Virus record (IMG/VR): IMGVR_UViG_3300007770_000001
Origin: a virus
Lineage: Duplodnaviria > Caudoviricetes
Reading direction: 5' to 3' (one strand)
Length of the DNA stretch: 64,000 nt
The position numbers were made by a program, and so were the translations under genes. Positions 20,249-55,020 of this stretch are shown here, one piece after another (position 1 is the first letter of the stretch; the number at the start of each line of letters is the position of its first letter). Under the pieces are notes generated by a model that saw only the letters and a program-made list of their open reading frames with translations, had not been told where the DNA came from and did no database searches.

Positions 20249-20332
20249 AGAACTGATGTGCTTGACTTTGACCCGCTCCAGGGATTCCGTCCCGTCCGGA
20301 TCGCCGGTCTGGTCCTCCCCCAAGTGTCTGTG

Positions 20333-35181: not shown

Positions 35182-35502
35182 GTGGAAAGGAAGGCCCTAC
35201 AGGATCGGGATGCGCGCGTGGGTTCCCATGTGTTCACCGCTCTTCAAGAGATAGAGTCTGCCATCCGCATCTCTCGCGACCACACCCAAACCCGACAAGC
35301 GCGGAAGGCGCACCGGGATCTTCTTCATATCCGGGACGGCCTGAAGAGAATCTCCTCCGCATCCCCCAACTGGTCCGATCCGGACACTATTCCTGAAGAG
35401 GAATGGTCTCGGAGGGCTCGGGAGAAAAGAGAGCAACGACGGAAAGAGCTCATGGAGAAGAAGCTGAAGCAGGCGACCCAGGCGGAGGCCTCTGATGAGT
35501 AA
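35182..35502 (+). CDS. hypothetical helical protein
   Basis: GTG after GAGGG; overlaps the portal start. Confidence 0.65.
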   Translation: MERKALQDRDARVGSHVFTALQEIESAIRISRDHTQTRQARKAHRDLLHIRDGLKRISSASPNWSDPDTIPEEEWSRRAREKREQRRKELMEKKLKQATQAEASDE

Positions 35503-37238: not shown

Positions 37239-38795
37239 ATGGCACAGTCCCCTCTTCTGGTTGACGCTGTACAGATTGAGCCCGGAGCTTCCGGGACTCG
37301 GCTCATCGAACGGGACACCGCTACAGGGGGTCTGGCGTTCTCTGACGCGGAGATCACCACTGCAGTTCTCCTGTCCCAGCTGGTTGGCTTCCGGGCGATC
37401 ACCGGAGTGTTCGTCGTGGGGCGCGCGGGCTCGGGGGCCCAGTACACTGCGATCCAAGATGCCCTCGACGCAGTGCCGGATTCTTCGAGTGCGGCCGCTC
37501 CTTCTCTGGTTCTGATCACCGCAGGTGTCTACACGGAGAACGTAGTCATCCAGAAGGATGGTGTGGTTCTCCATGGGCTGGGGGGCGCCAAGATCTCCAA
37601 CTCTGGAGATGACGAAACCGTCACGGTATCTGCCTCCCTCGACACCACCCCCCTCAGCGTCGTTCTCCGGGGACTGGAGATCGAGAACGACCAGGATGGC
37701 CGGTCCTGCGTCCGTATCCTGGGGGCAGACACCTTTGCCAGCGGAACCGTCACCTGCAACACAGCACCGCTTGCTGCGGGCGACACTCTGACGATCAACG
37801 GGAATGTCCTCACCGGGATCGCTGGGACTCGCAACTCAGGTTCGAACAACTTCTCCGTTCTCGGGTCAACCACCACCGCTATCGCAGCGGAGATTGCAGC
37901 GGCCATCAACGATACGGCGAACTCCTTCTCCGGAGATGTGTCCGCGAGCGTCGCTTCGAACATCATCACCCTCCAGGCGGTGACTGCTGGATCGGGTGGG
38001 AATGCCATCACTCTGGCGGACTCTACAACGCCCTCTGGCGGCTTCTCCCTCTCCGGCGCTACCCTTTCCGGGGGTTCCTCCGATGGGAGTGTGGTAGTGT
38101 CCCAGGGACTCCTGGTAGAGTCCTGCACGCTGGTGTCCTCGGGGAACTCCGGCTACCAGATCAACGCGGATACTGCCAATCATATCCTGGTCCGCCAAGG
38201 CACCTGGAGAGGCTCTGCTTCGACATCCTCTTGTCGCGCTGCGGACTGCGCTTCCCTCCGGGTGTTCGGTGTCGAGTGGGCGAATGACTTCGCTCTCTCC
38301 TTCGACACGGGGAACGACAACCCGAGCGAGACCCCAACCACCTACGAGGTCCAGACCTGCGGGCGCGTCGGGGATATCGTAGCAACTCTCACCTCTGCAG
38401 GGGCTCTGGACCTGCGGGAGAACCCAGTCGTTGGGAACCTGACTGTTGGGGGCACTCAGGCTGTCTCCGCTGTCTCCTGTGGGTTCGGGGATCTGGACTT
38501 CTCCGATACGGTGGTCGCCACGCTATCTCGGTGTGCCCGGGGTTCTGCTGTCTCATCCAGCGGGTCCCCGACTCTCGATGAGTCTCGGATCCTTGGGTCT
38601 GTCAGCTTCACTTCCTCTACTCAAGAGTCCGTTGTCTTCGACGTAGAGAACTCCGACGCCGACTACACCGTTGTTCTGGAGAGCCCCAGTACTGTCGCTT
38701 TCGGGGTATCCTCCAAGGCGGCAACTGGCTTCGATATCGACGCAGCCTCCGCGATCACAGGAACCGTCAGCTACGTTGTTCAAAGGGATACCTAA
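37239..38795 (+). CDS. virion fibre/appendage protein with beta-helix N-cap
   Basis: QYTAIQDALDAV...LITAGVYTENV (pectinesterase-like cap), sheath-insert-like domain, C-terminal beta sandwich. Confidence 0.75.
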   Translation: MAQSPLLVDAVQIEPGASGTRLIERDTATGGLAFSDAEITTAVLLSQLVGFRAITGVFVVGRAGSGAQYTAIQDALDAVPDSSSAAAPSLVLITAGVYTENVVIQKDGVVLHGLGGAKISNSGDDETVTVSASLDTTPLSVVLRGLEIENDQDGRSCVRILGADTFASGTVTCNTAPLAAGDTLTINGNVLTGIAGTRNSGSNNFSVLGSTTTAIAAEIAAAINDTANSFSGDVSASVASNIITLQAVTAGSGGNAITLADSTTPSGGFSLSGATLSGGSSDGSVVVSQGLLVESCTLVSSGNSGYQINADTANHILVRQGTWRGSASTSSCRAADCASLRVFGVEWANDFALSFDTGNDNPSETPTTYEVQTCGRVGDIVATLTSAGALDLRENPVVGNLTVGGTQAVSAVSCGFGDLDFSDTVVATLSRCARGSAVSSSGSPTLDESRILGSVSFTSSTQESVVFDVENSDADYTVVLESPSTVAFGVSSKAATGFDIDAASAITGTVSYVVQRDT

Positions 38796-42171: not shown

Positions 42172-42810
42172 ATGCGTCCTGACCCAAAGAAGGTTGCTGC
42201 TGCTTTCCTCGCGCAGAAGTCCGGTATGTCTCGGACGGCGGGTGAGGTTCGGTTCGTCAAGGATCGTGGGGGTGACAAGTCCGAGTGGGGTTGGAACACC
42301 CCCGGCCCGTCTGAGAGAGATATCTCGGACAACTTCGTGTTCAACGCGGAGAACCTGAAGCCGTTGGCTTTGGTGATGCGGTCGGTCCTGATGGGATTGG
42401 GCCACGCCACTTCGGCGCACACTCGGATGGTGAAGATCAAGAGCCGGAACGTTAGCCCTGATGGGGCTCTCGGAGGCAAGGGGTACATTCAGAAGATCCC
42501 GGACCTGCGGCGCCAGCTCATGAACTGTGTCGAGGTTCTCTCTGCGATTTCCGATACCCTGTACGATGAGATCAAGGCCCCTCACTGGGATCCCTCCGAG
42601 GACAAGATGACTCCACGGGACCGCGACGAGGTTCGTGAGATCGTAGAGGACGCTGAGGAGATCAAGGAAGATCCTGAGGCCTGGGCGGATGAGCAGGAAG
42701 AAGAGCTCGATGAGGAACACGACACCCTCGCTGTCCACAAGCAAGCAAGCCAGAAGGTGAGCTTGCACCGGGTGATCCGGAACTTCCAGAGGAGCACCGA
42801 TGTCGGATAG
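42172..42810 (+). CDS. putative internal head protein
   Basis: Starts MRPDPKKVAAAFL; RTAG and KQAS motifs; acidic C-terminal part; late motif upstream. Confidence 0.7.
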   Translation: MRPDPKKVAAAFLAQKSGMSRTAGEVRFVKDRGGDKSEWGWNTPGPSERDISDNFVFNAENLKPLALVMRSVLMGLGHATSAHTRMVKIKSRNVSPDGALGGKGYIQKIPDLRRQLMNCVEVLSAISDTLYDEIKAPHWDPSEDKMTPRDRDEVREIVEDAEEIKEDPEAWADEQEEELDEEHDTLAVHKQASQKVSLHRVIRNFQRSTDVG

Positions 42811-45208
42811 CACGATCCACCAGCTGGGCAATGCGGAGCTCCCCGCTGACCTGTTCACGGAGACCCTGGCGAACGGCTTTGGGCTCGGTGAGTACCCTGA
42901 CATGCAATACGGAATGGGGTCTCAGTCAGCCGTTGTCCTGCAGGACGGCCCCACGACTGCACCTGCTGTTCCTGACGGTCTGGCGAAGGGGTCCGCAGAG
43001 GATCTCGATCTCCGTTCTCTGATCGCCGAGACCGTCCCCGATCTCGATTGGCTCGACGCCAGCCTCCTGGAGCAGGATCCCGCGCGCCTTCCGAAGAACC
43101 CAACGGACGTGATCCCGGAGCTCGTTGACGCTTGGAGCTCCGACGGCCCTTCTCTCACAGCACAGACTCGAGACCTTTCCCGCGTTCGGTACGAGGAATC
43201 TCTCAAGGAGGGCTCCGGGACTTCCCAGAAGGCTTCCGTCAAGCAGATGCGAGAAGTGGCTTCCAAGGCGATGCGTCGGTCTGTGATGGGTCACGATATC
43301 GCGACCATCATCCGCGAGGCTCAGGAGTGTATGGGGGAAGAGGCGGCCCGGTTGGAGCCTCTCCTCAAGATGGTCCTCGCTGAGCATGGCCTGGCGGGGA
43401 ATGTGTTCATTCGAGCTGCTGCCTATCCCAAGTACGGGTCGGGCCAGTGGGGAGCCCACCTCCGGAGATATGCACGGGACGCCCGGTATGTGGTGGTCTC
43501 TGAGCGGGATCTCAAGAACGCAACCTGGATCCAGAACGGTCGGTGCTCTCTCACCGGCAAGTTCGCCGTCACGAAGGTCCCCTGGGAAGAGGCAGTCACC
43601 CACTACAAGTCTCGGCTGGCTGGCCGCTCTCCTTCTCGCACTGGTCTGCGTTCTGCGTTCCTCCAGAGGGAGGGTCTCTCCAAGAAGGCCAACAGCTGGC
43701 TTCCACACCACACGGCTGCTGCTGATCGGGTCTCCACTGAGGAGGCGTGGAAGGCGTTCGCGTCGTACAAGCCCGAGGTTCCTCAGCTTCGGGATCCGAA
43801 GGCCGTGCGGCTGGCTTCGGACAAGCGGGCGGCAGAGGAGAAGATCAACTCCCTCGTCGCTCAGGGAGTTCTCCCTGAGGTGGACCGGGATCGTATCCTG
43901 GCCTCTGGCGCTTCTCCCTCTGACCAGTTGAAGGCGGCAGCTCAGATCGCTGCTCTCCCCAAGGTCTCTGCGTACCAGGGAGTGCAGAACAAGGCCAACG
44001 AGGTCAATCGAGATCTGTATCTGGCGCGGCTCGAGATGAGCCACCTGGCTGCTCAGGAGCGTGTCTCCCGCCTCCGTGTCGAGGCTTCGCGCCGCTCTCA
44101 GGCAGCCATTCAGGACCTGGTGGATCGAAAGATCCTCAAGGCCTCCGAAGCGAAGGCGATGCTGGAGTCCGGCAAGTCGGTCCACGCAATCCTCCGCGCA
44201 GCAGCCAAGATCTCCCTCATCCGACAGGGTGAGTTCAGCGGCCAGAACAACAACGCAGCTGAGGCGGGAGTCCAGAGGGTTGTCTCCGGAGCAGAGAAGA
44301 ACCAGGCTCGTATCCGCACTGCCCAGACCAACATCGACCGTCGTGTCCGGAGGGAAGCAGCGGAGAGTACCCTCGAGGCCCGCGCCGCCCAGGATCGCGT
44401 CACCCGGCTCAAGGCAGGGTATCGGGAGGTCCGCCGGGCGATCGAGGCTGGCGCCCGTGGTCAGGTCCTCAAGAACATCATCGCCAAGACGTTCCATGGG
44501 AACGATGCCGAGATTGGCCGTCGTATGCTCGCTGGCCTCCTGGAGCGCACAGGAGCCCTGAAGGAGCCCACCAAGGCCAACTATGAAGGGAAGTCCTTCA
44601 AGATCCATCAGGCAGAGGCTCGGAAGGCTCGGTTCTCTGGGACCGAAGCCCGGAAGGTCCTGTCTTGGCTCGGCCGGACCCTCTCTGAGGGCTTCGCAGG
44701 GAAGCCCTTGGATGAGCTCATCCAGCGTCGGTTCACTGCTCGGACACGGGAGGCTCTCAAGAGCGAGATCTTCGTAGCTCGGACCTCCCACGAGGGTGGT
44801 GCAGGGTTCGTCTATGTGGACGCCTCTGCGTATGCAACCCTCAAGGGGGTCAAGGGGTGCGAGACCGGGGCCCTCAAGCACCGGGCGAATCAGATCCCCT
44901 CCGTCCTGGAGATGAGCCGGTGCGCTTCTTGCTCCCTGGTCTCGACTCGGGAGAACGGCGAGCGGGTTTGCTCCCTGTACAACAAGGTCCTGCTCGCCGA
45001 CGCTCGGGGTCCCGAGATGGACCGCATCCGTTCGGCCAACGTCCAGGTAGCCAACATGAGCCGCGCGGAGCAGACCCAGTCTCTGTTCGCCGGTGTCTAC
45101 GATCCAGCGGAGTTCGATCTCCAGAACACCAATCTGGAGGGGATCTCTCCCGGGATGCCTGAGACGGACAAGTTGGCTGAGATCTTCTTCGAGACGCGAC
45201 TGCAGTGA
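42800..45208 (+). CDS. large internally duplicated putative internal head protein
   Basis: 802 aa; paired helical repeats and two related alpha/beta units; C-terminal Cys cluster (GC...RCASC...VCSL). Confidence 0.75.
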   Translation: MSDSTIHQLGNAELPADLFTETLANGFGLGEYPDMQYGMGSQSAVVLQDGPTTAPAVPDGLAKGSAEDLDLRSLIAETVPDLDWLDASLLEQDPARLPKNPTDVIPELVDAWSSDGPSLTAQTRDLSRVRYEESLKEGSGTSQKASVKQMREVASKAMRRSVMGHDIATIIREAQECMGEEAARLEPLLKMVLAEHGLAGNVFIRAAAYPKYGSGQWGAHLRRYARDARYVVVSERDLKNATWIQNGRCSLTGKFAVTKVPWEEAVTHYKSRLAGRSPSRTGLRSAFLQREGLSKKANSWLPHHTAAADRVSTEEAWKAFASYKPEVPQLRDPKAVRLASDKRAAEEKINSLVAQGVLPEVDRDRILASGASPSDQLKAAAQIAALPKVSAYQGVQNKANEVNRDLYLARLEMSHLAAQERVSRLRVEASRRSQAAIQDLVDRKILKASEAKAMLESGKSVHAILRAAAKISLIRQGEFSGQNNNAAEAGVQRVVSGAEKNQARIRTAQTNIDRRVRREAAESTLEARAAQDRVTRLKAGYREVRRAIEAGARGQVLKNIIAKTFHGNDAEIGRRMLAGLLERTGALKEPTKANYEGKSFKIHQAEARKARFSGTEARKVLSWLGRTLSEGFAGKPLDELIQRRFTARTREALKSEIFVARTSHEGGAGFVYVDASAYATLKGVKGCETGALKHRANQIPSVLEMSRCASCSLVSTRENGERVCSLYNKVLLADARGPEMDRIRSANVQVANMSRAEQTQSLFAGVYDPAEFDLQNTNLEGISPGMPETDKLAEIFFETRLQ

Positions 45209-48174
45209 AGCCGAACCCAGCCCGCGTGGCTGTGCGTTGGGCCGTATCCCAGCAGCAAGCAGCCCCGAAGCCCATGGCGCCCGTTGGGAAGCCAGGGGTT
45301 CATGTGGGTCTGTTCTTCCCCGTCCCCGAGGATATCGCTGATCAGTTCCCGGAGAAGGAGCAGGACAAGTCCAACCCCCACGTGACCTTCCTGTATGTGG
45401 GAGAGGTGGAAACCTCTCGGGAACAGGAGCTCGTAGAACTGGTCTCCGACTTCTTCCTGGAGCTGCCGGCTATCCGGGCCTCTCTGGGCCCTATGGACTA
45501 CTTCCTGACGCCAACCCAAAAGGTGGTGTTCAGCTCGGTCCGTTTCTCCCATGACATCTCGAGTATCCGAGACCAGATCCGGGAAGCTCTCCTGAAAGCG
45601 GGCTTCCGTGTCAAAGATGCCTCCCCTATCCGATGGCATCCCCACGTAACCATCGCGTATGTCAGCCCGGAGGAGAACCTCAAGCTGGCGCCGCCCAAGG
45701 GGTCCTGGGATATCGAGACTGTGCGGGTCTGGGGCTTCTCCAAGGAGCACACGATCCTGTTCGGAGGTGCGGGCCGCCGTCCTACCTTCAAGAGCATGTC
45801 CCATCGGGTCGCTGCCAAGTACAAGTCCAAGAAGGATGTCAAGGGTCCCGACGGCAAGACCCACACGATCTACGAGTACTCGGACCAGCACAACGCGAAC
45901 AAGGACAAGGACAAATCCAAGAGGGTCGAGAAGCTCCGCCAGAGCCTCTCGAAGCTCCGGAGCAAGTACCGTAAAGGGCTGTCAGCAGAGGACGCTCGAG
46001 AGCGTCTCACGGCCCTCGCCGTTGCTCTGGTAGACTGCACCTACGAGCGCGTCGGGAATGACGGCTCCGCCAAGGAAGGACACTTCGGTGTCACCGGCTG
46101 GCAGAAGAAGCATGTCACCATCTCTGGGAATACAGCCACCTTCAAGTACACCGGGAAGTCGGGGATCGACCACGAGAAAAAGGTCACCAACTCCAAGGTG
46201 GTCGGGGCTCTCAAGAAGGCACTCGAAGGGAAGAAGCCCGGGGACAAGATCCTTTGCGATGGCGATGAGTGTGTGATCTCAGCCACCCAGGTCAATCAGT
46301 ACCTGTCGGAGTTCGGAGTCACCGCCAAGGATATCCGAGGCCTCCACGCCAACGAGGAGATGAAGAAGAGTCTCTCGGCCATCCGCAAGAAGGGACCCAA
46401 GCTTCCCTCCGACAAGAAGGAGCGGGAGAAACTCCTCAAGGATGAGTTCAAGCAGGCCCTCGAGTCCGCAGCCGAGGCAGTCGGCCACACCACCTCCATT
46501 CTGCGCTCCAGCTATCTGGTTCCGGGTCTGGAGGACAAGTTCATGCAGGACGGAACGGTGATCAACAAGCTGAACAAGGCTGGCCGTACAAAGACGGCTG
46601 CCTTTGACATCCTGCGGCACTGCCCCCACTGTCTGGGGATTGTGTCTGACCTGGCCAAGTTCTGGGATACCTGTACGGACTGTGGCTACGAGGTCAATCT
46701 GGGAGGCTTCTATAATGGGCGTGGTGATGCTCCTCACGGAGGAAAGCCTGTCGAGAGGATGGCCCGCGAAGACGCGTGGCAGCCGATTCCTGAGACGGAT
46801 CCTCGCCTGATCAAGCAGGCCCTGGATACCTTCTCCCAGTACTCCCGAGGTCCAATGATGTGGATCGGGGAGGAAACACGCCTGGCCACACTTGAAGAGC
46901 TCGCCCAGTACCTGGAACGTGTCGGAGCTCCCATCCCTGCCGTTCCCCATACCAAGACTGCTGCGGGGAACCAAGAGGTCATCGAGGCTCCTCACAACTT
47001 CCATCGAGTCAAGGTAGAGCCCCCACGAGCCAAGCGGAAGGTGTACCCGTTCGAGGGCTACATCGACTTCCAGGGCATCCAGATCGATGTAGAGAACAAG
47101 AAGGGGTCCTCTCGCTCCGGGGCGGATCCCGACGGGAACAAGTGGTCTATCAAGATGCACGCCCACTACGGGGAGATCCGTGGGACCGAGGGCACCGACG
47201 GGGATAAGCTTGACGTCTACGTGGGGGAGAACCACGATTCCTCGGTGGTGGTCGTAGTTCACCAACAGGACCCCAGCACTGGCAAGTTCGACGAGGACAA
47301 GGTCCTGTTGGGATTCGACTCTCCTGAGGAGGCCATCGGTCTCTACAAGAAGCAGTACGACAAGCCAGGCTTCTTCAAGGAGGGCGAGTTCCTGACCATG
47401 CCCATTGGCCAGTTCTGGCGCTGGGTCAACGATCGGAAGAACAAGGGGAAGAAGGTGAAGGCTCGGTACTGGAGACCTCTCTCCGATGCTGTCGGGCTCA
47501 AGACTGCCAAGAAGGGCTCCTGGCAGGAGAGGTACTGGAAGACTGCCATTATCCACCTCTGGAACGCAACAGACGGAGAGGGTGATCTCCGGGGGAATCC
47601 CGGTCTTCAGTCGAGCCTGACTCTGTACGAGCGCGCGCTGATACAGGAGCTCTTGATTCATGAGCAGCCCATTCTCCGGACGGGCGAGCACTACCACGTC
47701 CGGGACCACCGACTGGATCCCGAGGCGGTTGGGGAGCTCATCGGCGCAGGATATCTCGAGGAACTGGAGGACGGTTCGGTTGTCGTTTCTCCGATGTACC
47801 ACGCCAAGGCACGCCTGTATGGTGGGGGTCTGACTCTGAAGGAGCAGATCATGGCCTACGAGCTCGGGTACGACCACACCAAGTCTGCTGCGCGTCACGG
47901 TCCTCCGACTCAGGTTGGTCTCTCCTCTGTTCTGAAGCGGAAAGGTCTGGAGCCGGTCGATATCTGGTTCGGACAGGTTCGTCCCCACCGCCGGCCGACG
48001 GTGACCAAGCTCGAGGCTCTGCGCACACGCGCCGGAGATATCGTCTACTTTGCCGGGATGGATGGCAAGGGCGAGCCTGTCGTTGGCCGCACTGAGCGGG
48101 AAGCAAAGGAGCTCGCCAACGAGATCGTTAAGCTCCGCCTTCGCCACCAAACCCCAACGATCCACAGCACCTGA
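45205..48174 (+). CDS. polyvalent protein: 2H phosphoesterase, topoisomerase IB, Zn ribbon, inorganic-pyrophosphatase-like domain and two unknown domains
   Basis: HVTFLY/HVTIAY (2H); Topo IB pentad ERVG, GKSG, KDIR, GHT, SYL; CPHC..CTDC; YGEIRGTEGTDGDKLDVYVG...FDEDKVLLGF (PPase-like). Confidence 0.88.
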   Translation: MKPNPARVAVRWAVSQQQAAPKPMAPVGKPGVHVGLFFPVPEDIADQFPEKEQDKSNPHVTFLYVGEVETSREQELVELVSDFFLELPAIRASLGPMDYFLTPTQKVVFSSVRFSHDISSIRDQIREALLKAGFRVKDASPIRWHPHVTIAYVSPEENLKLAPPKGSWDIETVRVWGFSKEHTILFGGAGRRPTFKSMSHRVAAKYKSKKDVKGPDGKTHTIYEYSDQHNANKDKDKSKRVEKLRQSLSKLRSKYRKGLSAEDARERLTALAVALVDCTYERVGNDGSAKEGHFGVTGWQKKHVTISGNTATFKYTGKSGIDHEKKVTNSKVVGALKKALEGKKPGDKILCDGDECVISATQVNQYLSEFGVTAKDIRGLHANEEMKKSLSAIRKKGPKLPSDKKEREKLLKDEFKQALESAAEAVGHTTSILRSSYLVPGLEDKFMQDGTVINKLNKAGRTKTAAFDILRHCPHCLGIVSDLAKFWDTCTDCGYEVNLGGFYNGRGDAPHGGKPVERMAREDAWQPIPETDPRLIKQALDTFSQYSRGPMMWIGEETRLATLEELAQYLERVGAPIPAVPHTKTAAGNQEVIEAPHNFHRVKVEPPRAKRKVYPFEGYIDFQGIQIDVENKKGSSRSGADPDGNKWSIKMHAHYGEIRGTEGTDGDKLDVYVGENHDSSVVVVVHQQDPSTGKFDEDKVLLGFDSPEEAIGLYKKQYDKPGFFKEGEFLTMPIGQFWRWVNDRKNKGKKVKARYWRPLSDAVGLKTAKKGSWQERYWKTAIIHLWNATDGEGDLRGNPGLQSSLTLYERALIQELLIHEQPILRTGEHYHVRDHRLDPEAVGELIGAGYLEELEDGSVVVSPMYHAKARLYGGGLTLKEQIMAYELGYDHTKSAARHGPPTQVGLSSVLKRKGLEPVDIWFGQVRPHRRPTVTKLEALRTRAGDIVYFAGMDGKGEPVVGRTEREAKELANEIVKLRLRHQTPTIHST

Positions 48175-50027
48175 TGATTGTCTCCCCCGAGCGTGTGGCC
48201 CGTCTGTTCTTGGCGACCAAGACACGTTCGGAGAAGGAAGAGGCTGAGGCGGAGCGGCTGATCAGGCCCTCTCCGAAGAAGAAGCCTCCTCGTCGGGATC
48301 TGGAACGAGGTCGGGTCAACGATAGCGAGGACGACCCGGACGAGAAGCAGGACAAGAAGGACCGGTCCCACAACTACAAGGACTCAAGCTTCGACCTGGT
48401 AGCTTGGTGGTTCAAGAACGCTCGGGACACCAGTACGGTCAGGATGCGCAAGGTGGATACCGGGCGCGTCGTCGACGTCTCTCCGGACACTGTCTCTGAG
48501 AACCCAGGCGCGTACGAGGAAGTCACTGGGGACGATGCAACAGATACGGACGACGCTGATCCTGATGCAACCGAGGACACCCCTTCCGACACTCCCAGTT
48601 CTGATCCAAAAGGGGATGCCCCTCCCAAGCCTGACCCCTCCTCTCTCCCAGGGCCTACGGACCTCCCGGACAAGGACGCGTACGAGAAGTTCCGCTCCGA
48701 TGCCATGGCTCGCTACACAGCCTTGGGGATAGCTGAAGACGAGGTTACTGAGATCTTGGACATGGTCTCGAACCAAGGGGACGCTGAGGAATCAGTGGTC
48801 CTGTTGGATGAGCTCGCGGATACGGCTGCTGCGGAAAAGGCGGACCGAGAGAAGGCCGAGAAGGCCGAGGCCGAAGCTCTCCAGAAGGAGCAGACCGAGG
48901 CTGAAGAGGCTCGGAAGAAGGAGGAGCGGGACAAGCTCACCAAGGATCTCACTCAGGGTCTGCCGAGGGACCAGGAGTCTGCTCTTGAGAGGTCCCTCGG
49001 GAAGCTCTCTCCCGAGCAGTTCCAGGCGTTCTCGGAAACTCTGCAGAACCGGGTGTCTGACCTCAACGCGAGTCGTCCGGACATCAAAGAGTTCATGGAG
49101 GACCTCTCCGCGCGGAAGAAGGATCTCCGGGAAAGCACTGACCCGGCCCGGTTGGGAGAAGCCCTCGCGGCCGTGACCTACTTCAACACGGTGGTAGACA
49201 ACCCTGCTGTGGATCTGGATAACCCTCTTCCGGAGAAGGGAGGGGACGAGCTGGAAGGGGATGCTCTGACTGAGGCCCGGAAGAAGTCGGTCGAGAGGTC
49301 CTCACGTGCAGTAGAGAAGTATCGTGCGATGTCCTCCGAAGATCGGAAACGTCACCTCAAGCGGCTGGACCAAGAGCTCCTGGATCTCCCAGACGGATCG
49401 CCCCGCCGAGTAGAGCTTGAGGCGATTGAGAAGGGGTTGGGAATCGCTGCTGTCCTCGAAGAGGGAGACTCGGTTCGAGGAGCCGGCTCTGCAGTAGCCG
49501 GAGTCATCCGTGCTGCCGATACAGCTGGGGATCTTGACAAGATCCTATCTCTCTCTGTGTTGGAGAGCACCGATGCCCTGGGTTCGGATGACCAGCATAT
49601 CATCCGTGGTGTCTACAACAACCTGGGCTCTATGGATTTCGTAGATGTGGTCGCCAAGGACCACCCCGCCCGTCCCCTCGCTGAACTCCTTGCGGACCCG
49701 GCGGGGAGCAAGAACATGTCCCGGGCGGACAGGGCGTTCATGAAAGAACTCCTGGTGGATGCCCTAGTCGCGGACACTGCCTTCCTGGATCCCCTCGTTT
49801 CAGGGGAGAGCGAAGGCCTCACGGTCAAGGAACACCGCAAGAAGTCTCTGAAGAAGCGGAAGAAGTTCACCCCATCGACCAAGATCCCAACGGACGTCAA
49901 GGGCGCTCGTGGTTGGTTCGAAGAGTTCCTCGAGAACCTCTCCGCACCGTTCCGAAAGAAGTCCTCCTCCCACATTCCTTGGGATTTCACCCCCTGGAAC
50001 CCCGAAACCATCACCTTCCAGACCTAA
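48174..50027 (+). CDS. large acidic helical protein, putative internal head/ejection protein
   Basis: Starts MIVSPERVARLFL; low-complexity D/T/P linker; coiled coil. Confidence 0.7.
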   Translation: MIVSPERVARLFLATKTRSEKEEAEAERLIRPSPKKKPPRRDLERGRVNDSEDDPDEKQDKKDRSHNYKDSSFDLVAWWFKNARDTSTVRMRKVDTGRVVDVSPDTVSENPGAYEEVTGDDATDTDDADPDATEDTPSDTPSSDPKGDAPPKPDPSSLPGPTDLPDKDAYEKFRSDAMARYTALGIAEDEVTEILDMVSNQGDAEESVVLLDELADTAAAEKADREKAEKAEAEALQKEQTEAEEARKKEERDKLTKDLTQGLPRDQESALERSLGKLSPEQFQAFSETLQNRVSDLNASRPDIKEFMEDLSARKKDLRESTDPARLGEALAAVTYFNTVVDNPAVDLDNPLPEKGGDELEGDALTEARKKSVERSSRAVEKYRAMSSEDRKRHLKRLDQELLDLPDGSPRRVELEAIEKGLGIAAVLEEGDSVRGAGSAVAGVIRAADTAGDLDKILSLSVLESTDALGSDDQHIIRGVYNNLGSMDFVDVVAKDHPARPLAELLADPAGSKNMSRADRAFMKELLVDALVADTAFLDPLVSGESEGLTVKEHRKKSLKKRKKFTPSTKIPTDVKGARGWFEEFLENLSAPFRKKSSSHIPWDFTPWNPETITFQT

Positions 50028-50068: not shown

Positions 50069-50126
50069 ATGGCTTCCGCTAAAGGTGAGTCGGCTCAGCC
50101 GTCCCTATCTCTGTGGAGACTGTGAA

Positions 50127-51065
50127 ATGACCAACAAGCTGACCCGGCTCGGTGCTCGGAACCTGACTTCGGCGATGGACAACGTCGCCGATACGATCCA
50201 GACCCACTTCGCTCTGCTGGGCATCGACCCGAAGATCGCCGGGGACTATGCCCTGCGGACCGATCTTCTCTCCGATGTCATCGAGCGGCGTGCCTCTGAG
50301 AACTTCCCCAAGAACGCGGACATGGATCTCTCCGTCATCGGAGAGACCACCACCGCTTCCTCTGTCCCCGGCTACGCAGGGTTCACCGCTCAGATCCGTG
50401 AGCTGGAGGGCCTCGCGACCCAGGCTGCTGAGATCTCCGCCCAGGTGGAGGAGGCCGTCGGCCCTCTCCTGCGGGAAGGCTCGGTTCTGGACGCCGGCCA
50501 GAAGAAGATCCACAAGGCCATCGTCGACGGGTACAAGCAGCACCTGGGGCAGATCGGAGACATCATCATCGAGCGCAAGACAGCTCTGGTGGGCGCTCGT
50601 GCCCGCCTCAAGGTCACCCAGGTCCGCCGGACTCCCAACCAGGTTCAGGGGGAGCTCCTCACGGCCGTTACTGAGCGCTACGGCGCTGAGGTCGCTGACT
50701 TCATCGCCACCACCCAGTCGGCCCTCCGGGATGCCGAGAAGAACCTGCGGATCGCCTTCAAGGGCTTCGAGCTCGAGCAGCGTGCTCTCACCGCCTCCGG
50801 CAAGACGGCGGGCCTCGCCGATCTTCTGGCCCGGTTCCAGGAGACCCTGTCCAAGACCTGGCAGCGTATCGTTCAGGTGGTCCAGAACGCCGTCGGTCTG
50901 GTCTCCGGGGCGGCCAAGCGCGTCACCACGGCCCATGACGACTTCATGGAGGCCTTCTCCGCAGCACAGTCCAAGGCTGCCTCTGATGACGAGGATGCTG
51001 AGGACACCGACAAGGAAGCCTCCCAGACCGACAAGGTCGCGGGCCCCTTCAACCTCTTTGCGTAG
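50127..51065 (+). CDS. putative internal head protein, helical
   Basis: ATG after GGAG; strong codon bias; RRAS, GKTA, KAAS, KEAS and KVAG motifs. Confidence 0.75.
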   Translation: MTNKLTRLGARNLTSAMDNVADTIQTHFALLGIDPKIAGDYALRTDLLSDVIERRASENFPKNADMDLSVIGETTTASSVPGYAGFTAQIRELEGLATQAAEISAQVEEAVGPLLREGSVLDAGQKKIHKAIVDGYKQHLGQIGDIIIERKTALVGARARLKVTQVRRTPNQVQGELLTAVTERYGAEVADFIATTQSALRDAEKNLRIAFKGFELEQRALTASGKTAGLADLLARFQETLSKTWQRIVQVVQNAVGLVSGAAKRVTTAHDDFMEAFSAAQSKAASDDEDAEDTDKEASQTDKVAGPFNLFA

Positions 51066-51079
51066 GTCGATCTGATCGG

Positions 51080-51559
51080 ATGACTCGCTCCGCTTCCAAC
51101 TTCGTCGACTTCCAGTCTCGGGCTCGTGAGTTCTCCGAAGGGGACCTCGCTGCCCCCTTCGGATATTCCGTGGACCAGGCAGGACGGGTCACCAATGTGT
51201 GGCCTGCCGTCGGGATGGTGGATGTGGAGTTCGCGACGGGGAACCGTCGTCTTCCGGCAGAGGATCTCCAGAAGTTCACTCCTGATGGAGATCCTGACCC
51301 CCCGAAGACCAACTCGGTCACCGGACCGAGTTCTACCAAGGTGGCACTCTACTGGGCTCAGCGGGATCGCAAGTATCGGATGTCTCGTCCTGAGATCATC
51401 GATGGTTGTCCCTGCTGCCCTCGCTGCCCGGACAAGCCCAAGCTCAGCCGCGCCATCTACAAAAGGTTGGACGGCGCCAGCGAGCGGCTCCTCGGTTGCA
51501 AGTCCTGTCTCTTCCTGATCAAAAGTTCTGATATCGTCAATATGGGGGGTGGGGGATGA
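51080..51559 (+). CDS. structural-region protein with SH3-like and Zn-ribbon parts
   Basis: GRVTNVWPAVGMVDVEF, KVALYWAQ, CPCCPRC...CKSC. Confidence 0.7.
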   Translation: MTRSASNFVDFQSRAREFSEGDLAAPFGYSVDQAGRVTNVWPAVGMVDVEFATGNRRLPAEDLQKFTPDGDPDPPKTNSVTGPSSTKVALYWAQRDRKYRMSRPEIIDGCPCCPRCPDKPKLSRAIYKRLDGASERLLGCKSCLFLIKSSDIVNMGGGG

Positions 51560-52371
51560 CTCCGGGCATTTATTCCATCCTCAACACCCAGAATGGGAAG
51601 AGGTACGTCGGGAGATCCAAGAATATGGAGGCCCGGTGGCGAGGCCATGAACGTTCGCTGGTGGCGGGGTCTCATTGCAACAACCATCTCCAGAGGTCCT
51701 GGAACCTTTACGGATCCTCCACCTTTCAGTTTGAGATTCTTGAGGTAGTCCCGGATGCGATGACGCGGGCCCACAGGGAAGCGTTCTGGTGTGGCCACTT
51801 CGATACCCACAACCGAGACAAGGGCTACAATATCGGGGATGTCCGGACAGATGAAGGGTCGGTTTACGTTTCAGACGAAGTTCGTTTGAAACGTTCTGCA
51901 GCGCGGCTTGGGAAGACTATGTCGGCAGAGACGCGAAGGAAGATTTCGATCGCCAACAAGGGGCGAAAGAGGACATCTGAGGTTTGCGAGAGGATTCGGC
52001 AAGCACGTACCGGGACCAAGGCTTCCGAAGAAACCCGGAAGAAGATGTCCGTGTCTCGTAGGAAATGGAACCACAGCCCGGAGACAGTGGCGAAGATAGC
52101 TGACTCCAACCGAGGACAGAAGAGATCCCCTGCCATTTGCCAGGCTATGTCAGAAGCCCGAAAGGGGAGGCCTGGACGCCCTCACACCGCTGAGACCAAA
52201 GCCAAGATCTCAGAGAAACTCCAGGGGCAGAAGCGCACGCCGGAGCAGTGTGCGCGGATTTCCGTCTCGAAGCAGGGGCCTCGGAAACCGCATTCTGAGG
52301 AAACCCGGAACAAGATAGCGGCTTCTCTCAGAGCCTATTGGGCTCGGCGGAAGAGTTCCGACATCGTCAAC
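51521..52371 (+). repeat. 21-bp synonymously recoded direct repeat (KSSDIVN) flanking the GIY-YIG gene
   Basis: aaa agt tct gat atc gtc aat at 51521 versus aag agt tcc gac atc gtc aac at 52351. Confidence 0.85.
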
Positions 52372-52389
52372 AACCCAAGCTGCGCATAG
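51556..52389 (+). mobile_element. free-standing GIY-YIG homing endonuclease with NUMOD3 repeats
   Basis: GIYSILNTQNGKRYVGRS...RW..H, FEILE, GYN; repeated S.ETRRKIS/HSPETVAKI/HTAETKAKIS/HSEETRNKI units. Confidence 0.92.
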
Positions 52390-52390
52390 A

Positions 52391-53848
52391 ATGGCTCACT
52401 CCAAGAAAGCATATGCGATGCTCACCCATCCCCGGATCACCGGGCGTGGTTGGGGCAAAATGCGTCGGAAGGCGACGTCCGGGGCTTCCTCGGCCAACCT
52501 GTCGGATCAGGCTCGTCTGATCCTCGGCGGGCCTCTGGATCCCGACAAGTACCTCTTCTCGCACTGCACCATCGTGGCGTCGGTGGATATCGATCCCGTC
52601 CCGGGTGTCCGTATGGGCACTGTCAAGGTAGGGAACTCGACCATTGACCGTCGCTATGGCGACTACTACATCAGGCCCACCAGTTCCCAGTATGTGAACA
52701 ACAACGGGGACTCTTGGTCTCGCCCAGTGCTGCTGGCCAGCTATCCGACCTTCGTCGGGGGCCACAACTTCCTCGAGCATGTCCAGGTTGCCTCCAAGTC
52801 CAAGGGCCGGATCATCGATGCGGTCGCTCGGGATGTTGGGGACTCGGTCTACATCGACATCCTGGTCGCGACCAATCGGAAGCATGCTTCCCTGATCTCG
52901 GACATCAAGTCCGGACGTCTCAACACCCTCTCGATGGGCTGTACCACCGACTTCACGATCTGCACCAAGTGCGGACACGTGGCGGTGGACGAGACCGACC
53001 TCTGCGACCACGTCAAGGTTGCCAAGCTCGACACCTTCCTCGACGAGCGGAACGAGCGTCGGATCATCGCCGAGCTCTGCGGCCACATCTCTCACAACGA
53101 GACGGGGGGTGTCAACTTCATCGAAGCCAGCTGGGTTGGGATCCCGGCTTTCACTGGCGCGGTGATGCGAAACATCCTGCAGATCGCCAACCTCGATGAG
53201 CGCGAGTCCGAGATTCGCCGGATCCTCGCCAGTCAAGGTCCCTCGTGGTCGGAGGCTGCCATGATGAAGGCAGCCAAGTTCGACCCCCAAAGGTTCCTGG
53301 TTGGACAAGGGGACGAGGACAACGAGGATCAAGAGCCAGAGCCAACCCCGGAGCCCGAGACCAAGGACACTCTCCAGAAGCTCGAAGATGACCTGGTTGA
53401 CCGAGTCAAGGACCGCGTGCAGGACCGCCTCCGCTCCGAGATGCGTTCCGATGAGGGTGACAAGACCCTTGGGGACTCCGACTGGCCCAATGACACTCTG
53501 AACAGGGAAGCCCGGACCCGGGTAGCCTCCAACACCCGCCGTCGCTACAAGATCGCGGTGGAAACGGCTCTCCGGCATGCGACCTCTCAGATCGCTCTCG
53601 TCGACTCGGTCGCTCGGATCAACATCGCCCACGATATCCGGATCCCCGTCTCCATCTATCGCGCCGCTCTCGAGGCTGGCTCCTCTTCTCGCTACGCTGG
53701 AACTCAGCAGTACGTGAATCGGATGCAGCACCTCCTGGGTCGCCGCATCAGTCCCGCCGAATTCCGGGTTGTTGTCCGGGTCGGCTCCCTGCTCTCCCAG
53801 TGGGAGCAATTCAACAACCCGCAGTCATCCTCCCCGAGGAGTTCCTAA
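52391..53848 (+). CDS. prohead (capsid maturation) protease with C-terminal extension
   Basis: GGHNFLEH, DAVARD, LNTLSMGC (Ser nucleophile), ICTKCGH..CDH zinc module, EASWV..PAF; upstream of scaffold, decoration and MCP genes. Confidence 0.8.
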   Translation: MAHSKKAYAMLTHPRITGRGWGKMRRKATSGASSANLSDQARLILGGPLDPDKYLFSHCTIVASVDIDPVPGVRMGTVKVGNSTIDRRYGDYYIRPTSSQYVNNNGDSWSRPVLLASYPTFVGGHNFLEHVQVASKSKGRIIDAVARDVGDSVYIDILVATNRKHASLISDIKSGRLNTLSMGCTTDFTICTKCGHVAVDETDLCDHVKVAKLDTFLDERNERRIIAELCGHISHNETGGVNFIEASWVGIPAFTGAVMRNILQIANLDERESEIRRILASQGPSWSEAAMMKAAKFDPQRFLVGQGDEDNEDQEPEPTPEPETKDTLQKLEDDLVDRVKDRVQDRLRSEMRSDEGDKTLGDSDWPNDTLNREARTRVASNTRRRYKIAVETALRHATSQIALVDSVARINIAHDIRIPVSIYRAALEAGSSSRYAGTQQYVNRMQHLLGRRISPAEFRVVVRVGSLLSQWEQFNNPQSSSPRSS

Positions 53849-55020
53849 TGGCACGTCAGCGCCTCTCATGGATCGAGGAAGCTCGTCGAGCTTCCGCCCA
53901 CCCCGCAACCCCCGACGAGGGTCCGGCCTCTCCCGCAGGCAACGGTGAGGACCCCACCGCCGACGCCTACGAGAACGGCGACACCTCCTCGTGGGCCTCT
54001 GACCCGCACCCGCACCCCGGCCCCTACCCGGACAGCGCCCACCCCGCCACGCCCGACGAGGGCTCGGACCACCCGGCCGGCAAGTCCGCCTCCGACGAGA
54101 TCTCTCCCGAGACGAACCGTCGCGCCTCCCAGTGCGTCCGCATCGCGACCGCCATGCTCGGCGAGCCCGACAGCCCCGCCAAGGTCGCCGCCATCGAGGC
54201 GCAGGCCATCGAGCTGATGCACCTCCCCGACGCTTCCATCACCGCCAGCCTCAAGCGGCTCGGTCTGGACGGCGACGGTGAGGACGACACCGACAAGGAA
54301 GCCTCTTCCAAGATCTCCAAGAACACCGACCGGATCGCCCGGCTCGAGCGCGTTCTGATCCGCCTCGCCGACGACGACCTGGACGAGGAGGCCGCCACCA
54401 AGAAGGCTTCGGCTGAGCTGGAGACCCGCGTGGCGCGGCTCGAGCGCATCCTCGTCAAGCTGGCTGAGGAAGACGAGGATGACGACGGCGACCGGATCGC
54501 CCGGCTCGAGCGCGTTCTGATCCGCCTCGCCGAGGAGGAGGAGGAAGAGGACCCCGCCCCGAAGGCTGCCGCCACGGACAAGAAGGCCGACGACCTGCTC
54601 CTCGAGGAGATGCTCCGCGAAGAGGGGATGCTGGACAAGAAGGCCGACGACCTGCTCCTCGAGGAGATGCTCCGCGAAGAGGGGATGCTGGACGAGCCCT
54701 GCGGCATGGGTGAGCCCTCCATGGACGAGCCCTCCGGCGACACCGAGCTCGAGATCGATCTCGCTGAGGAGGATCCCATGACCATCCTCGCCGACGACGA
54801 CCTGGACGAGGAGGCCGCCACCGTGCTCGCCTCCCTGTACAGCGAGACCCCCGGCGCGAACCGCGAGGCCGCCACCGAGCCCGAGCGCCGGCCGCAGCCC
54901 AAGAAGGCGAGCACCGGTGCCTCCAGCCTCGGCAACGTCCGGACGGCGTCCAACGACTCCGACGTGGCTCAGCTCGAGAACCTGTGGAAGTCGGCTCCCG
55001 ACGTCTCCGCGCTCATCTGA
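53848..55020 (+). CDS. capsid scaffolding protein
   Basis: Very acidic, repetitive, TAATG-coupled to the protease; many [KR]-x-AS motifs; C-terminal helix VAQLENLWKSAPDVSALI. Confidence 0.75.
   Translation: MARQRLSWIEEARRASAHPATPDEGPASPAGNGEDPTADAYENGDTSSWASDPHPHPGPYPDSAHPATPDEGSDHPAGKSASDEISPETNRRASQCVRIATAMLGEPDSPAKVAAIEAQAIELMHLPDASITASLKRLGLDGDGEDDTDKEASSKISKNTDRIARLERVLIRLADDDLDEEAATKKASAELETRVARLERILVKLAEEDEDDDGDRIARLERVLIRLAEEEEEEDPAPKAAATDKKADDLLLEEMLREEGMLDKKADDLLLEEMLREEGMLDEPCGMGEPSMDEPSGDTELEIDLAEEDPMTILADDDLDEEAATVLASLYSETPGANREAATEPERRPQPKKASTGASSLGNVRTASNDSDVAQLENLWKSAPDVSALI
54328..54822 (+). repeat. dispersed exact repeats in the scaffold
   Basis: 44-bp copy (DRIARLERVLIRLA) at 54328 and 54490; 36-bp copy (LADDDLDEEAAT) at 54364 and 54787. 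Confidence 0.9.
54577..54693 (+). repeat. exact 57-bp tandem duplication in the scaffold (DKKADDLLLEEMLREEGML x2)
   Basis: Identical copies start at 54577 and 54634. Confidence 0.95.

What the first reader, a model, noticed from the sequence alone, without database searches (positions are those of the whole stretch)
45205..48174. Candidate protease-processed, capsid-delivered enzyme polyprotein (2H phosphoesterase, Topo IB, Zn ribbon, PPase-like)
Recognisable domains with intact catalytic residues are joined by near-identical linkers at the domain borders: HRVAAKY (45802, before Topo IB), TKTAA (46588), TKTAA (46951, before the PPase-like domain), LKTAK (47497) and TKSAA (47878). These match the [KR]-x-A motif abundant in the scaffold, so the prohead protease may cut one gene product into about six enzymes inside the head. 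Polyvalent phage proteins with 2H and PPase-like domains are known. Domain-by-domain release by the maturation protease is the new inference. Possible roles are degrading cyclic or 2'-5' nucleotide signals or repairing RNA (2H), relaxing the injected genome (Topo IB) and driving nucleotidyl transfer (PPase).
Basis: partly seen in the sequence, partly recalled or inferred. Interest (0 to 1): 0.87.

Follow-up and report, generated by a model that had tools for sequence, protein, structure and literature searches.

The report
Motif-delimited phage head cargo polyprotein
A huge uncultured phage encodes, between its portal and head-protease genes, a 989-residue protein made of six modules (three are recognisable enzymes), each opened by a short Lys/Arg-x-Ala tag that also sits at the expected self-cutting spots of the phage's protease and scaffold, so the protein is probably cut into separate pieces inside the head, though no cutting has been shown.

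Summary
ORF 45205-48174 encodes a 989-aa polyvalent protein with 2H, topoisomerase IB and InPase domains, a Zn ribbon and two unknown modules. All five listed motifs are at the stated coordinates, in low-confidence linkers between folded domains. There are three more sites: aa 7, 752 and 779.

In over 200 homologues, similarity starts exactly at the K/R of [KR]-x-A and the sequence upstream is unrelated. At least ten unrelated module families open with this tag. Relatives fuse or split the neighbouring genes at these points.

The tag is invariant just after the catalytic domain of the assemblin-fold protease (K 34/34, A 31/34). It occurs two to five times in the conserved scaffold C-terminus.

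Reading it as a prohead-protease cut site is therefore well motivated but unproven (about 0.55).

RVAxx[YFW] is a separate, cargo-only motif, 50-fold enriched and absent from the protease. It may be an address signal instead.

Iyer et al. 2017 proposed processing of polyvalent proteins, mainly by embedded MPTase domains.

This scan has noted similar tag-delimited cargo polyproteins on other phage DNA (for example ISKRA tags).

Verdict: a new variant of a known kind. Interest 0.7.

The parts
45205..48174 (+). Gene for the 989-aa (110.7 kDa) polyvalent cargo protein. Its GTG start overlaps the upstream stop (GTGA) and its stop overlaps the next start (ATGA).
45223..45240 (+). N-terminal type A motif RVAVRW (aa 7-12), position-locked as M-x3-P-x-[KR]-V-A-x-x-[FW]. 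It supports the GTG start over the ATG at 45274.
   Evidence: same pattern at the N termini of p212 (42172) and p617 (48174) and of Topo-first homologues
45292..45789 (+). 2H phosphoesterase module (about aa 30-195) with two HxT motifs.
   Evidence: homologue HSPs start at aa 31/34
45802..45822 (+). HRVAAKY (aa 200-206), a type A delimiter that opens the Topo IB module.
   Evidence: in 126 representatives pos0 R75/K13, pos2 A97, upstream positions unconserved
45814..46584 (+). Topoisomerase IB module (aa 204-460) with the R-K-R-H-Y pentad intact.
46588..46602 (+). TKTAA (aa 462-466), a type B delimiter that opens the Zn-ribbon module.
   Evidence: KTAAYD/RTAAYD..HCPxC in homologues
46600..46950 (+). 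Zn-ribbon module (CPHC..CTDC) plus a small alpha/beta part (aa 466-582), function unknown.
46951..46965 (+). TKTAA (aa 583-587), a type B delimiter that opens the InPase module.
   Evidence: 23 of 28 homologues have [KR]-x-A exactly here
46963..47457 (+). InPase (polyvalent-protein type inorganic pyrophosphatase-like) module, aa 587-751.
47497..47550 (+). Double delimiter: LKTAK (aa 765-769) and WKTAI (aa 778-782). The second opens the next module.
   Evidence: HSP starts at aa 779
47548..47820 (+). 'NATDG' module (aa 782-872), fold unknown. Matches to winged-helix proteins are weak (TM 0.30-0.34).
47878..47892 (+). TKSAA (aa 892-896), a type B delimiter before the C-terminal module.
47890..48171 (+). 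C-terminal alpha/beta module (aa 896-989), function unknown.
52391..53848 (+). Prohead protease: assemblin-fold domain aa 49-264, disordered linker 249-325, helical C-domain 380-475. Conserved K293-A-A (nt 53267-53275) lies in the linker; a second conserved site is R395-H-A.
53800..55020 (+). Scaffold-like acidic coiled-coil protein. Its conserved C-terminal sites are REAA, KKAS (nt 54901-54912) and RTAS (nt 54940-54951), just before the conserved LW(E/K)SAPDVS tail.
48174..50027 (+). p617, whose N terminus (MIVSPE-RVARLF-LATKT...KKKPPRRDLER) is the module that follows Topo IB within single ORFs of relatives.
42172..42810 (+). p212, which starts MRPDPK-KVAAAF, the same position-locked type A motif.

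Best explanation
P0001 is a phage-type polyvalent protein encoded in the head-morphogenesis module of a huge phage related to the Bacillus phage G / Tunturi_5 lineage.

It is built from six cassettes: 2H phosphoesterase, topoisomerase IB, a Zn-ribbon module, InPase, a 'NATDG' module and a C-terminal module. Each cassette carries a short tag at its own N-terminal edge with the core [KR]-x-A.

The proposed mechanism has three steps:
1. The precursor is loaded into the prohead.
2. The assemblin-fold prohead protease (52391-53848) cuts at or next to the Ala of the [KR]-[TSK]-A-[AST] tags. This is the same tag at which it is expected to release itself from its C-terminal domain and to detach and fragment the scaffold.
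3. Products of about 22, 29, 13.5, 21, 13 and 10.5 kDa remain in the head and enter the cell with the DNA.

Because each cassette brings its own tag, cassettes can be fused, split into separate genes or swapped between phages without changing the mature products.

Shown here: the domains, the tags, their exact coincidence with module borders across hundreds of homologues, and their conservation in the protease and scaffold.

Inferred: packaging, cleavage, the scissile bond and the roles of the enzymes. The suggested roles are 2H against cyclic or 2'-5' nucleotide signals or RNA ends, Topo IB relaxing the incoming genome as in poxvirus virions, and InPase removing PPi or acting on a nucleotide-like substrate.
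For: 1. Borders. BLAST HSPs of 85 plus 132 homologues begin at aa 31/34, 201, 583/584 and 779. They end at 458-462, 751-760 and 872.

2. Column profiles change from unconserved to conserved exactly at the K/R. For Topo (126 representatives) the counts are R75/K13, V68, A97. For InPase they are K14/R9 and A23 of 28.

3. In an all-vs-all comparison of 276 proteins, 174 of 1222 internal HSP-start peaks fall exactly on the K/R of the motif; chance is about 0.8% per position. With Topo and InPase excluded, 106 of 1078 still do. These cover at least ten unrelated module families.

4. After the Topo end, a motif follows within 20 aa in 66% of cases against 14% in the null.

5. Fusion and fission. The modules of window genes p802, poly, p617, p326 and p159 occur fused in single ORFs of up to 2326 aa in relatives, and 2H occurs as a separate gene.

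6. Canonical substrates. Among 34 distinct protease homologues, [IL]-[AS]-K-[AS]-A-S lies in an otherwise gapped linker, with K 34/34 and A 31/34. AF2 puts it in a disordered stretch after the assemblin domain. It is also present in phage G gp19 and Tunturi_5 gp331.

7. The scaffold C-terminal 75 aa carries 2-5 [KR]-x-A-[SAKT] sites in all 32 distinct homologues, at conserved columns.

8. Motif observed/expected across related loci is 5.9x in scaffold, 4.4x in protease and 2.3x in cargo. In this genome only the polyprotein, the scaffold, the protease and a few small ORFs are enriched.

9. The protease fold matches herpesvirus assemblins and T4 gp21. Assemblins cut (V/L/I)-x-A|S, with P1 = Ala (own knowledge).

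10. Context. The order portal, cargo ORFs, p159, protease, scaffold, decoration protein, MCP is conserved in 62 loci and in three independently chosen representatives.

11. PHROG families that share the InPase module are annotated as minor head or virion structural proteins.

12. P0001 has no peptidase domain of its own.
Against: There is no proteomic or biochemical evidence of cleavage or of virion presence for this phage or any relative. The phage G particle-proteomics paper reports no cleavage sites.

P1' is mostly Ser in the protease and scaffold sites, but is A/T/I/K at cargo borders.

In stand-alone genes the tag lies only 2-8 residues from the Met. Cutting there would remove only a tiny peptide.

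The type A variant (RVAxx[YFW]) is absent from the protease and nearly absent from the scaffold. AF2 models it as a helix running into the first Topo strand, so it may be structural or an address.

The second conserved protease site lies in a confidently folded helical domain.

The enrichment statistics use related, non-independent sequences.

In the best-studied giant phages, the prohead protease removes N-terminal propeptides. It does not split multi-enzyme proteins.
Confidence: 0.55

Rival explanations
1. The tags are not cut. They are address or docking peptides (a capsid-targeting or scaffold/DNA-binding signal) carried by every cargo module, and the protein stays full length in the virion. 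One tag per module would raise avidity, or would simply be inherited with each cassette.
For: The type A motif is position-locked at residue 7 of three unrelated head-module proteins and of many Topo-first homologues. It is about 50-fold enriched in cargo proteins and absent from the protease, MCP and portal. The N4 virion RNAP, a polyvalent protein, is packaged unprocessed (PMC5512222).
Against: Type B tags are invariant in the protease's own inter-domain linker and in the scaffold C-terminus. A cargo address has no obvious role there, whereas cleavage is expected. An address would not need to sit at every module border. The two readings are not exclusive: the T4 capsid-targeting sequence is both address and cut site (own knowledge).
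Confidence: 0.25
2. The tags are cut, but not by the prohead protease in the head. The cut would be made by a host protease or another phage protease, before packaging or after ejection into the cell.
For: Iyer et al. propose that polyvalent proteins are converted into active units once inside the host, or before packaging, mostly by embedded MPTase domains.
Against: No MPTase or other peptidase domain is present in P0001, nor in the precomputed Pfam domains of 85 homologues. No other protease was found among the head-module proteins scanned. The sharing of the tag with the protease and scaffold points to the head protease.
Confidence: 0.1
3. The tags are neutral scars of the recombination that shuffles modules, or N-terminal caps intrinsic to each fold. 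They would have no processing or targeting role.
For: HSP starts necessarily fall on conserved residues. The RVAAKY stretch is contiguous with the Topo fold in the AF2 model.
Against: The DNA of the tags is not conserved; the two TKTAA copies differ at synonymous sites. At least ten unrelated folds share the same three-residue core. The tag is also conserved in the non-shuffled protease and scaffold.
Confidence: 0.07

Closest known systems
Polyvalent proteins of phages and conjugative elements (Iyer, Burroughs, Anand, de Souza, Aravind 2017, PMC5512222)
   Same: Several unrelated effector domains in one polypeptide. 2H and InPase are listed there as phage-type polyvalent domains. Late or virion gene context. 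The authors propose processing into functional units, and note assemblin-like peptidases at the C termini of some polyvalent proteins.
   Different: No embedded peptidase here. Topo IB is not described there as a polyvalent-protein domain: the word appears only in a reference title. No delimiter motif or cassette grammar is described there. Here the separate prohead protease is the candidate processing enzyme.
T4 internal proteins IPI-III and Alt, with a capsid-targeting sequence cut by the gp21 prohead protease (own knowledge; reviewed in PMC9026906, which I did not read)
   Same: Head-packaged, injected proteins carry a short N-terminal peptide ending in the protease consensus. The scaffold core is fragmented at the same consensus. 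The protease has the same fold.
   Different: T4 cuts once per protein, after (L/I)-x-E, and removes only the leader. Here the consensus is [KR]-x-A and recurs at every internal module border of a multi-enzyme protein.
phiKZ / 201phi2-1 / SPN3US head proteins processed by gp175/gp245 at A/S/G-x-E (PMC10052503)
   Same: Giant phages with many internal or ejection proteins cut by one prohead protease at a short three-residue rule. The protease self-cleaves a C-terminal propeptide.
   Different: There, 13 of 14 mapped sites remove N-terminal propeptides, and the mature product is one fragment. Domain-by-domain release of separate enzymes is not reported.
Herpesvirus assemblin R- and M-sites, (V/L/I)-x-A|S (own knowledge; Welch et al. 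1991, cited)
   Same: The best structural matches of the window's protease are assemblins (Z 6-8). One conserved site lies right after the protease domain and others lie near the scaffold C-terminus, with Ala followed by Ser, as in the R- and M-sites.
   Different: Basic P3 in place of hydrophobic P4/P3. The phage substrates include enzyme cargo.
Poxvirus virion-encapsidated topoisomerase IB (own knowledge)
   Same: A small type IB topoisomerase carried in the virion for early events. The sequence aligns to vaccinia Topo structures 2H7F and 1A41.
   Different: Here it is part of a polyprotein in a tailed phage, and delivery is inferred only.

Membership tests
Phage-type polyvalent protein (Iyer et al. 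2017) | Two or more unrelated effector or enzymatic domains in one polypeptide | tested here: met
   2H, Topo IB and InPase by Pfam, plus three further modules.
Phage-type polyvalent protein (Iyer et al. 2017) | Encoded among late or virion genes and packaged into the virion | tested here: inconclusive
   The context is met: the gene lies between the portal and the protease/scaffold/MCP. Packaging itself is not testable here.
Phage-type polyvalent protein (Iyer et al. 2017) | Mosaic architectures: the same domains recombined in many contexts | tested here: met
   14,083 proteins match at E<=0.001. Topo and InPase modules lie at all positions in proteins of up to 3381 aa.
2H phosphoesterase superfamily | Two H-x-T/S motifs | tested here: met
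   HVT at NPHVTF and at PHVTIA, aligned to the LigT-like structure 2FYH. Pfam PF13563 scores 48.9 bits against a cutoff of 27.
Type IB topoisomerase | Catalytic Arg-Lys-Arg-His/Asn-Tyr pentad | tested here: met
   The alignment to 2F4Q (E 4.9e-13) pairs RVGN/RVGS, GKSG/GKHG, DIRG/DFRT, GHT/GNT and SSY/GSY.
InPase (PF18823, polyvalent-protein pyrophosphatase-like OB domain) | Pfam model above the gathering score, with an acidic metal-binding cluster | tested here: met
   140 bits against a cutoff of 26.8. The D-G-D-K-L-D signature is visible in the sequence. The individual acidic residues were not mapped on a structure.
Prohead-protease substrate (T4 IP/Alt-like capsid cargo) | Carries the protease's consensus, which is also present in the scaffold and at the protease's self-processing site | tested here: met
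   [KR]-x-A-[SA] is conserved in the protease linker and the scaffold C-terminus of more than 30 distinct homologues, and lies at the cargo module borders. The consensus itself is inferred, not measured.
Prohead-protease substrate (T4 IP/Alt-like capsid cargo) | Demonstrated cleavage in proheads, with mature fragments in virions | not testable with these tools
   The clade is uncultured. No cleavage data exist for phage G.
Assemblin / prohead protease fold (the 52391 gene) | Herpesvirus-protease-like beta-barrel fold | tested here: met
   VIA Z 8.1 (1vzv, rmsd 3.0, 113 aligned), Z 7.7 (4v08) and Z 7.0 (T4 gp21, 5jbl) over residues 49-264. T4 gp21 is the top Foldseek hit, with a weak E of 0.015. 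phrog_18299 E 6e-13.
Assemblin / prohead protease fold (the 52391 gene) | Catalytic Ser and His | tested here: inconclusive
   Invariant H125/H130 and S181 (SMGC) are candidates. Two relatives carry inteins inserted at QNF|C and SMG|C, which hints that these sites are functionally critical. No residue-level superposition was done.

The most novel reading that the evidence does not exclude
Huge phages of this lineage use a true polyprotein strategy for capsid cargo, with a portable grammar. Every cargo cassette carries its own [KR]-x-A protease tag, and often an RVAxx[YFW] address. Enzymes can therefore be fused, split into genes or exchanged between phages at will, and are still delivered as the same separate mature proteins. 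The tag set co-evolves with the assemblin-fold protease, which uses the same tag to free itself and the scaffold. This would give a sequence rule for predicting the injected proteome of thousands of uncultured phages.
Probability: 0.45. Interest if true: 0.82.

Novelty: new variant of a known kind. Interest (0 to 1): 0.7.

Why it matters
If the tag is the cut site, it does three things:
1. It gives a simple, testable rule for reading the mature, injected protein complement of a very large clade of uncultured huge phages. More than 14,000 related proteins were detected.
2. It explains how polyvalent proteins without their own peptidase are resolved into working enzymes.
3. It explains why module borders, gene borders and fusion points coincide.

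It would also extend the herpesvirus-like 'Ala at P1' logic to a phage prohead protease. A virion-delivered topoisomerase IB would be added to phage biology, paralleling poxviruses.

If the tag is an address instead, it is still a new capsid-targeting signal that could be used to load foreign proteins into phage heads.

Tried and rejected
- Complex prediction of the protease domain (aa 36-270) with the linker peptide aa 566-606 gave no verdict (score 0.00). It counts neither for nor against.
- Megablast of the gene against cultured phages found no match. tblastn found only single-module hits, none covering 80% or more of the query.
- phmmer of the protease against PDB sequences found nothing. 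Foldseek alone was weak (E 0.015), and the fold was recovered only with VIA.
- ESM Atlas searches for modules 463-583 and 766-989 gave only TM<0.4 rows and no usable family. Pfam at E<=1 gave nothing credible.
- The idea that the MCP N-terminus (NAVKARL) is a cut site was rejected. Relatives have VKQKII there, so the MCP is probably not processed.
- The apparent fusion of the protease to cargo in L061 was rejected. The extra 620 residues are two inteins.
- A DNA-level junction repeat was rejected.
- A full-length MAFFT alignment of 74 mosaic homologues failed. A fragment alignment (A1) was used for AF2 instead, and it left the 2H and Zn-ribbon parts poorly modelled.
- The MCP and decoration-protein depletion of the motif (0.07x and 0.22x) is not counted as strong evidence. 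Those sequences are about 80% identical, and the expectation per sequence is below 0.5.
- A literature search for a phage protease with Ala at P1 returned nothing relevant.
Full report
**What is there.** The window is the first 64 kb of a 126-kb IMG/VR virus record that CheckV rates 28% complete, so it is a fragment of a huge phage.

ORF 45205-48174 (+) encodes 989 residues. Pfam finds a 2H phosphoesterase (aa 50-158), a type IB topoisomerase (231-432) and the polyvalent-protein InPase domain PF18823 (617-741). No peptidase domain is found, even at permissive thresholds.

The catalytic residues are intact:
- Both HxT motifs of the 2H domain are present.
- The Arg-Lys-Arg-His-Tyr pentad of Topo IB aligns to Deinococcus TopIB 2F4Q at E 4.9e-13.

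The gene sits in the head module, in this order:

| Coordinates | Gene |
|---|---|
| 32697-34640 | TerL |
| 35495-37195 | portal |
| — | several unknown genes |
| 42172-42810 | p212 |
| 42800-45208 | p802 |
| 45205-48174 | this gene |
| 48174-50027 | p617 |
| 50085-51065 | p326 |
| 51080-51559 | p159 |
| 51556-52389 | GIY-YIG homing endonuclease |
| 52391-53848 | protease |
| 53800-55020 | acidic coiled-coil scaffold |
| 55236-55892 | decoration-like p218 |
| 55905-56777 | MCP |

p802, this gene and p617 are joined by GTGA and ATGA overlaps.

**The motifs.** I found three more: ARVAVRW (aa 6-12), VKARYW (751) and WKTAII (778).

- TK[TS]AA occurs three times here and nowhere else in the 90 ORFs of the record. 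The expectation from composition is about 0.003.
- The two TKTAA copies use different codons, so this is selection on the peptide and not a DNA repeat.
- An AF2 model (mean pLDDT 66) is confident for Topo IB (200-400), InPase (600-750), 805-880 and 935-980.
- Every motif falls in a low-confidence stretch between those domains.

**Homologues shuffle exactly at the tag.**

A word-indexed search returned 85 relatives with many different architectures. An exhaustive HMMER search found 14,083 proteins at E<=0.001, including proteins of up to 3381 aa with the Topo module at any position.

BLAST HSPs against P0001 begin at aa 31/34, 201, 583/584 and 779. They end at 458-462, 751-760 and 872.

Column counts switch from noise to conservation exactly at the K/R:
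- For 126 representative Topo modules: R75/K13, V68/A25, A97, A95, then [KR]-[YF]-K.
- For InPase: K14/R9, x, A23 of 28, then [KA]-[ST]-N-A-K-V-V-E-V-P.
- In both, the eight to twelve upstream positions are unconserved.

After the Topo end, the next [KR]-x-A follows within 20 residues in 66% of cases, against 14% for random positions.

In an all-against-all comparison of 276 proteins, 174 of 1222 internal HSP-start peaks coincide exactly with the K/R of the motif. Chance is about 0.8% per position.

With Topo and InPase removed, 106 of 1078 peaks still coincide. They belong to at least ten unrelated module families:
- ATK[ST]xxEKEDE...KKKPPR
- NATDG
- VGTD..IYA
- YFxVGDxILYG
- the Zn ribbon
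- WKKGY
- others

**Gene borders equal module borders.**

Sixty-two related loci were fetched through the protease. They keep the order portal, variable giant ORFs, p159, protease, scaffold, p218, MCP. MCP identity is about 80% and protease identity about 40%.

What this window encodes as p802, poly, p617, p326 and p159 appears in relatives as single ORFs of up to 2326 aa. Elsewhere 2H is a gene of its own.

The window's p617 starts MIVSPE-RVARLF-LATKT...KKKPPR. That is the module which follows Topo inside single ORFs of other phages. p159 starts MT-RSAS, and its relatives, whether free or fused, start M-x-[KR]-x-[AS]-T.

Three representatives chosen without regard to context (P0153, P0096, P0159) lie in the same portal-to-protease slot.

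**Link to the protease.**

The 485-aa protein matches head-maturation-protease PHROGs. Residues 49-264 of its AF2 model superpose on herpesvirus assemblins (VZV Z 8.1, rmsd 3.0 over 113 residues; PRV Z 7.7) and on T4 gp21 (Z 7.0).

Right after this domain comes a gapped, disordered linker. In it, 34 distinct homologues keep [IL]-[AS]-K-[AS]-A-S, with K 34/34, A 31/34 and S 23/34. A second [VI]-[KR]-x-A-[SK]-[ST] lies about 100 residues later. Phage G gp19 and Tunturi_5 gp331 have K-V-A-S at the same place.

The last 75 residues of the scaffold carry two to five [KR]-x-A-[SAKT] sites in all 32 distinct homologues. They lie at conserved columns (K-[KS]-A-S-[YF]-x-R-P; [KR]-x-A-S-S), just before the most conserved tail, LWESAPDVS.

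This layout mirrors the release and maturation sites of herpesvirus assemblin, which cuts after Ala and before Ser (own knowledge).

Across the related loci the strict motif is enriched 5.9-fold in scaffolds, 4.4-fold in proteases and 2.3-fold in cargo ORFs. In this genome only the polyprotein (6 against 1.2), the scaffold (6 against 0.64), the protease (3 against 0.6) and a few small ORFs stand out. The large tail proteins have 0-1.

**Two motif classes.**

- [KR]-[VI]-A-x-[KR]-[YFW] is about 50-fold enriched in cargo proteins: 29 against 0.6 expected, and 139 against 2.5 in representatives. It is absent from the protease, MCP and portal.
- [KR]-[TSK]-A-[STA] is shared by scaffold (9.8x), protease (4.6x) and cargo (1.9-2.5x).

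The first class is position-locked at residue 7 of p212, the polyprotein and p617. Another first-reader note (e1-5366636) made the same point. It may act as an address like the T4 capsid-targeting sequence.

The second class, which includes TKTAA, LKTAK and TKSAA, is the better cut-site candidate.

**Interpretation and limits.**

The best reading (about 0.55) is that the prohead protease cuts the precursor at the tags inside the head. If it cuts after Ala, the products are about 22, 29, 13.5, 21, 13 and 10.5 kDa, plus two short peptides.

Nothing here shows packaging or cleavage. Other caveats:
- P1' differs between the canonical sites and the cargo sites.
- Tags next to the initiator Met would release only tiny peptides.
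- The statistics rest on related sequences.

The main rival (about 0.25) is an uncut address or docking peptide. The two readings are compatible with each other.

**Compared with what is known.**

Iyer et al. 2017 defined polyvalent proteins and listed 2H and InPase as phage-type domains. They proposed processing mainly by embedded MPTase domains. They noted that assemblin-like peptidases occur at the C termini of some polyvalent proteins and probably process them during assembly. They describe no delimiter motif and no Topo IB module.

In SPN3US and its relatives, the prohead protease removes N-terminal propeptides at A/S/G-x-E. It does not split enzymes apart.

I found no paper describing the [KR]-x-A rule or Topo IB as capsid cargo in huge phages.

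Within this scan, follow-up agents have reported similar tag-delimited cargo polyproteins on other phage DNA. Examples are I/L-S-K-R-A tags (e1-5358065, e1-5369586) and a 2H/CCA/Topo IB head protein with an address-like motif (e1-5362060). These are unchecked AI notes and were not used as evidence, but the ISKRA tag has the same form as the protease-linker consensus found here.

**Verdict.** This is a new variant of a known kind: polyvalent virion proteins and protease-processed head cargo.

Noticed in passing
L061:8162-11476 and L068:16851-22118: The prohead protease genes of two relatives are interrupted by inteins. L061 has one with a homing-endonuclease domain after GGQNF|C and a mini-intein after SMG|C; the 1755-aa L068 ORF has Hint and LAGLIDADG hits. 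Both L061 insertion points are invariant motifs, which suggests that S181 (SMGC) and the H125-H130 region are catalytic.
   Followed up: partly
window 51556-52389: A GIY-YIG/NUMOD3 homing endonuclease gene sits between p159 and the protease. In the relatives whose gene maps were examined, p159 abuts the protease directly, so this looks like a recent insertion.
   Followed up: partly
window 48174-48300 (p617 N-terminus) and many homologues: The peptide ATK[TS]xxE[KR]EDEExxxLxxxxPKKKPPRxDLR is the most frequent cassette in these cargo proteins. It always follows a [KR]-x-A tag and is often placed right after Topo IB. Its function is unknown; it has an acidic half followed by a basic half.
   Followed up: partly
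window 51080-51559 (p159): A small protein with a Cys-rich C-terminus (CPCCPRCP...C..C) is conserved immediately upstream of the protease in 53 of 62 loci. In some relatives it is in frame with the C-terminus of the giant cargo ORF, yet keeps an internal Met just before its [KR]-x-[AS]-T start.
   Followed up: partly
window 55905-56777 vs 52391-53848: The MCP is about 80% identical across the clade while the adjacent protease is about 40% and the scaffold 30-55%. The MCP (290 aa) has no delta domain, and its N-terminus is not conserved for the tag, so it is probably not processed. Its cultured relatives are Tunturi_5 (48%) and phage G gp27 (39%).
   Followed up: partly
window 20258-21157: A ferritin/Dps-like protein (Pfam Ferritin E 6e-7) has an internal MTSKTAY that may be the true start and carries the tag. 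The neighbouring ORF 19550-20248 has 3 strict tags against 0.35 expected. These are possible further cargo proteins outside the head module.
   Followed up: partly
window 52391-53848, aa 184-232: The protease domain carries an invariant Cys/His cluster (C184, C191, C194, C205, H207, C230, H232). It looks like a zinc-binding insertion, and I do not know of one in T4 gp21 or the herpesvirus proteases.
   Followed up: no
window 37239-38795: A 518-aa protein just after the portal gives a near-threshold Pectinesterase hit (26.6 bits, cutoff 27). The same weak hit recurs in L066.
   Followed up: no
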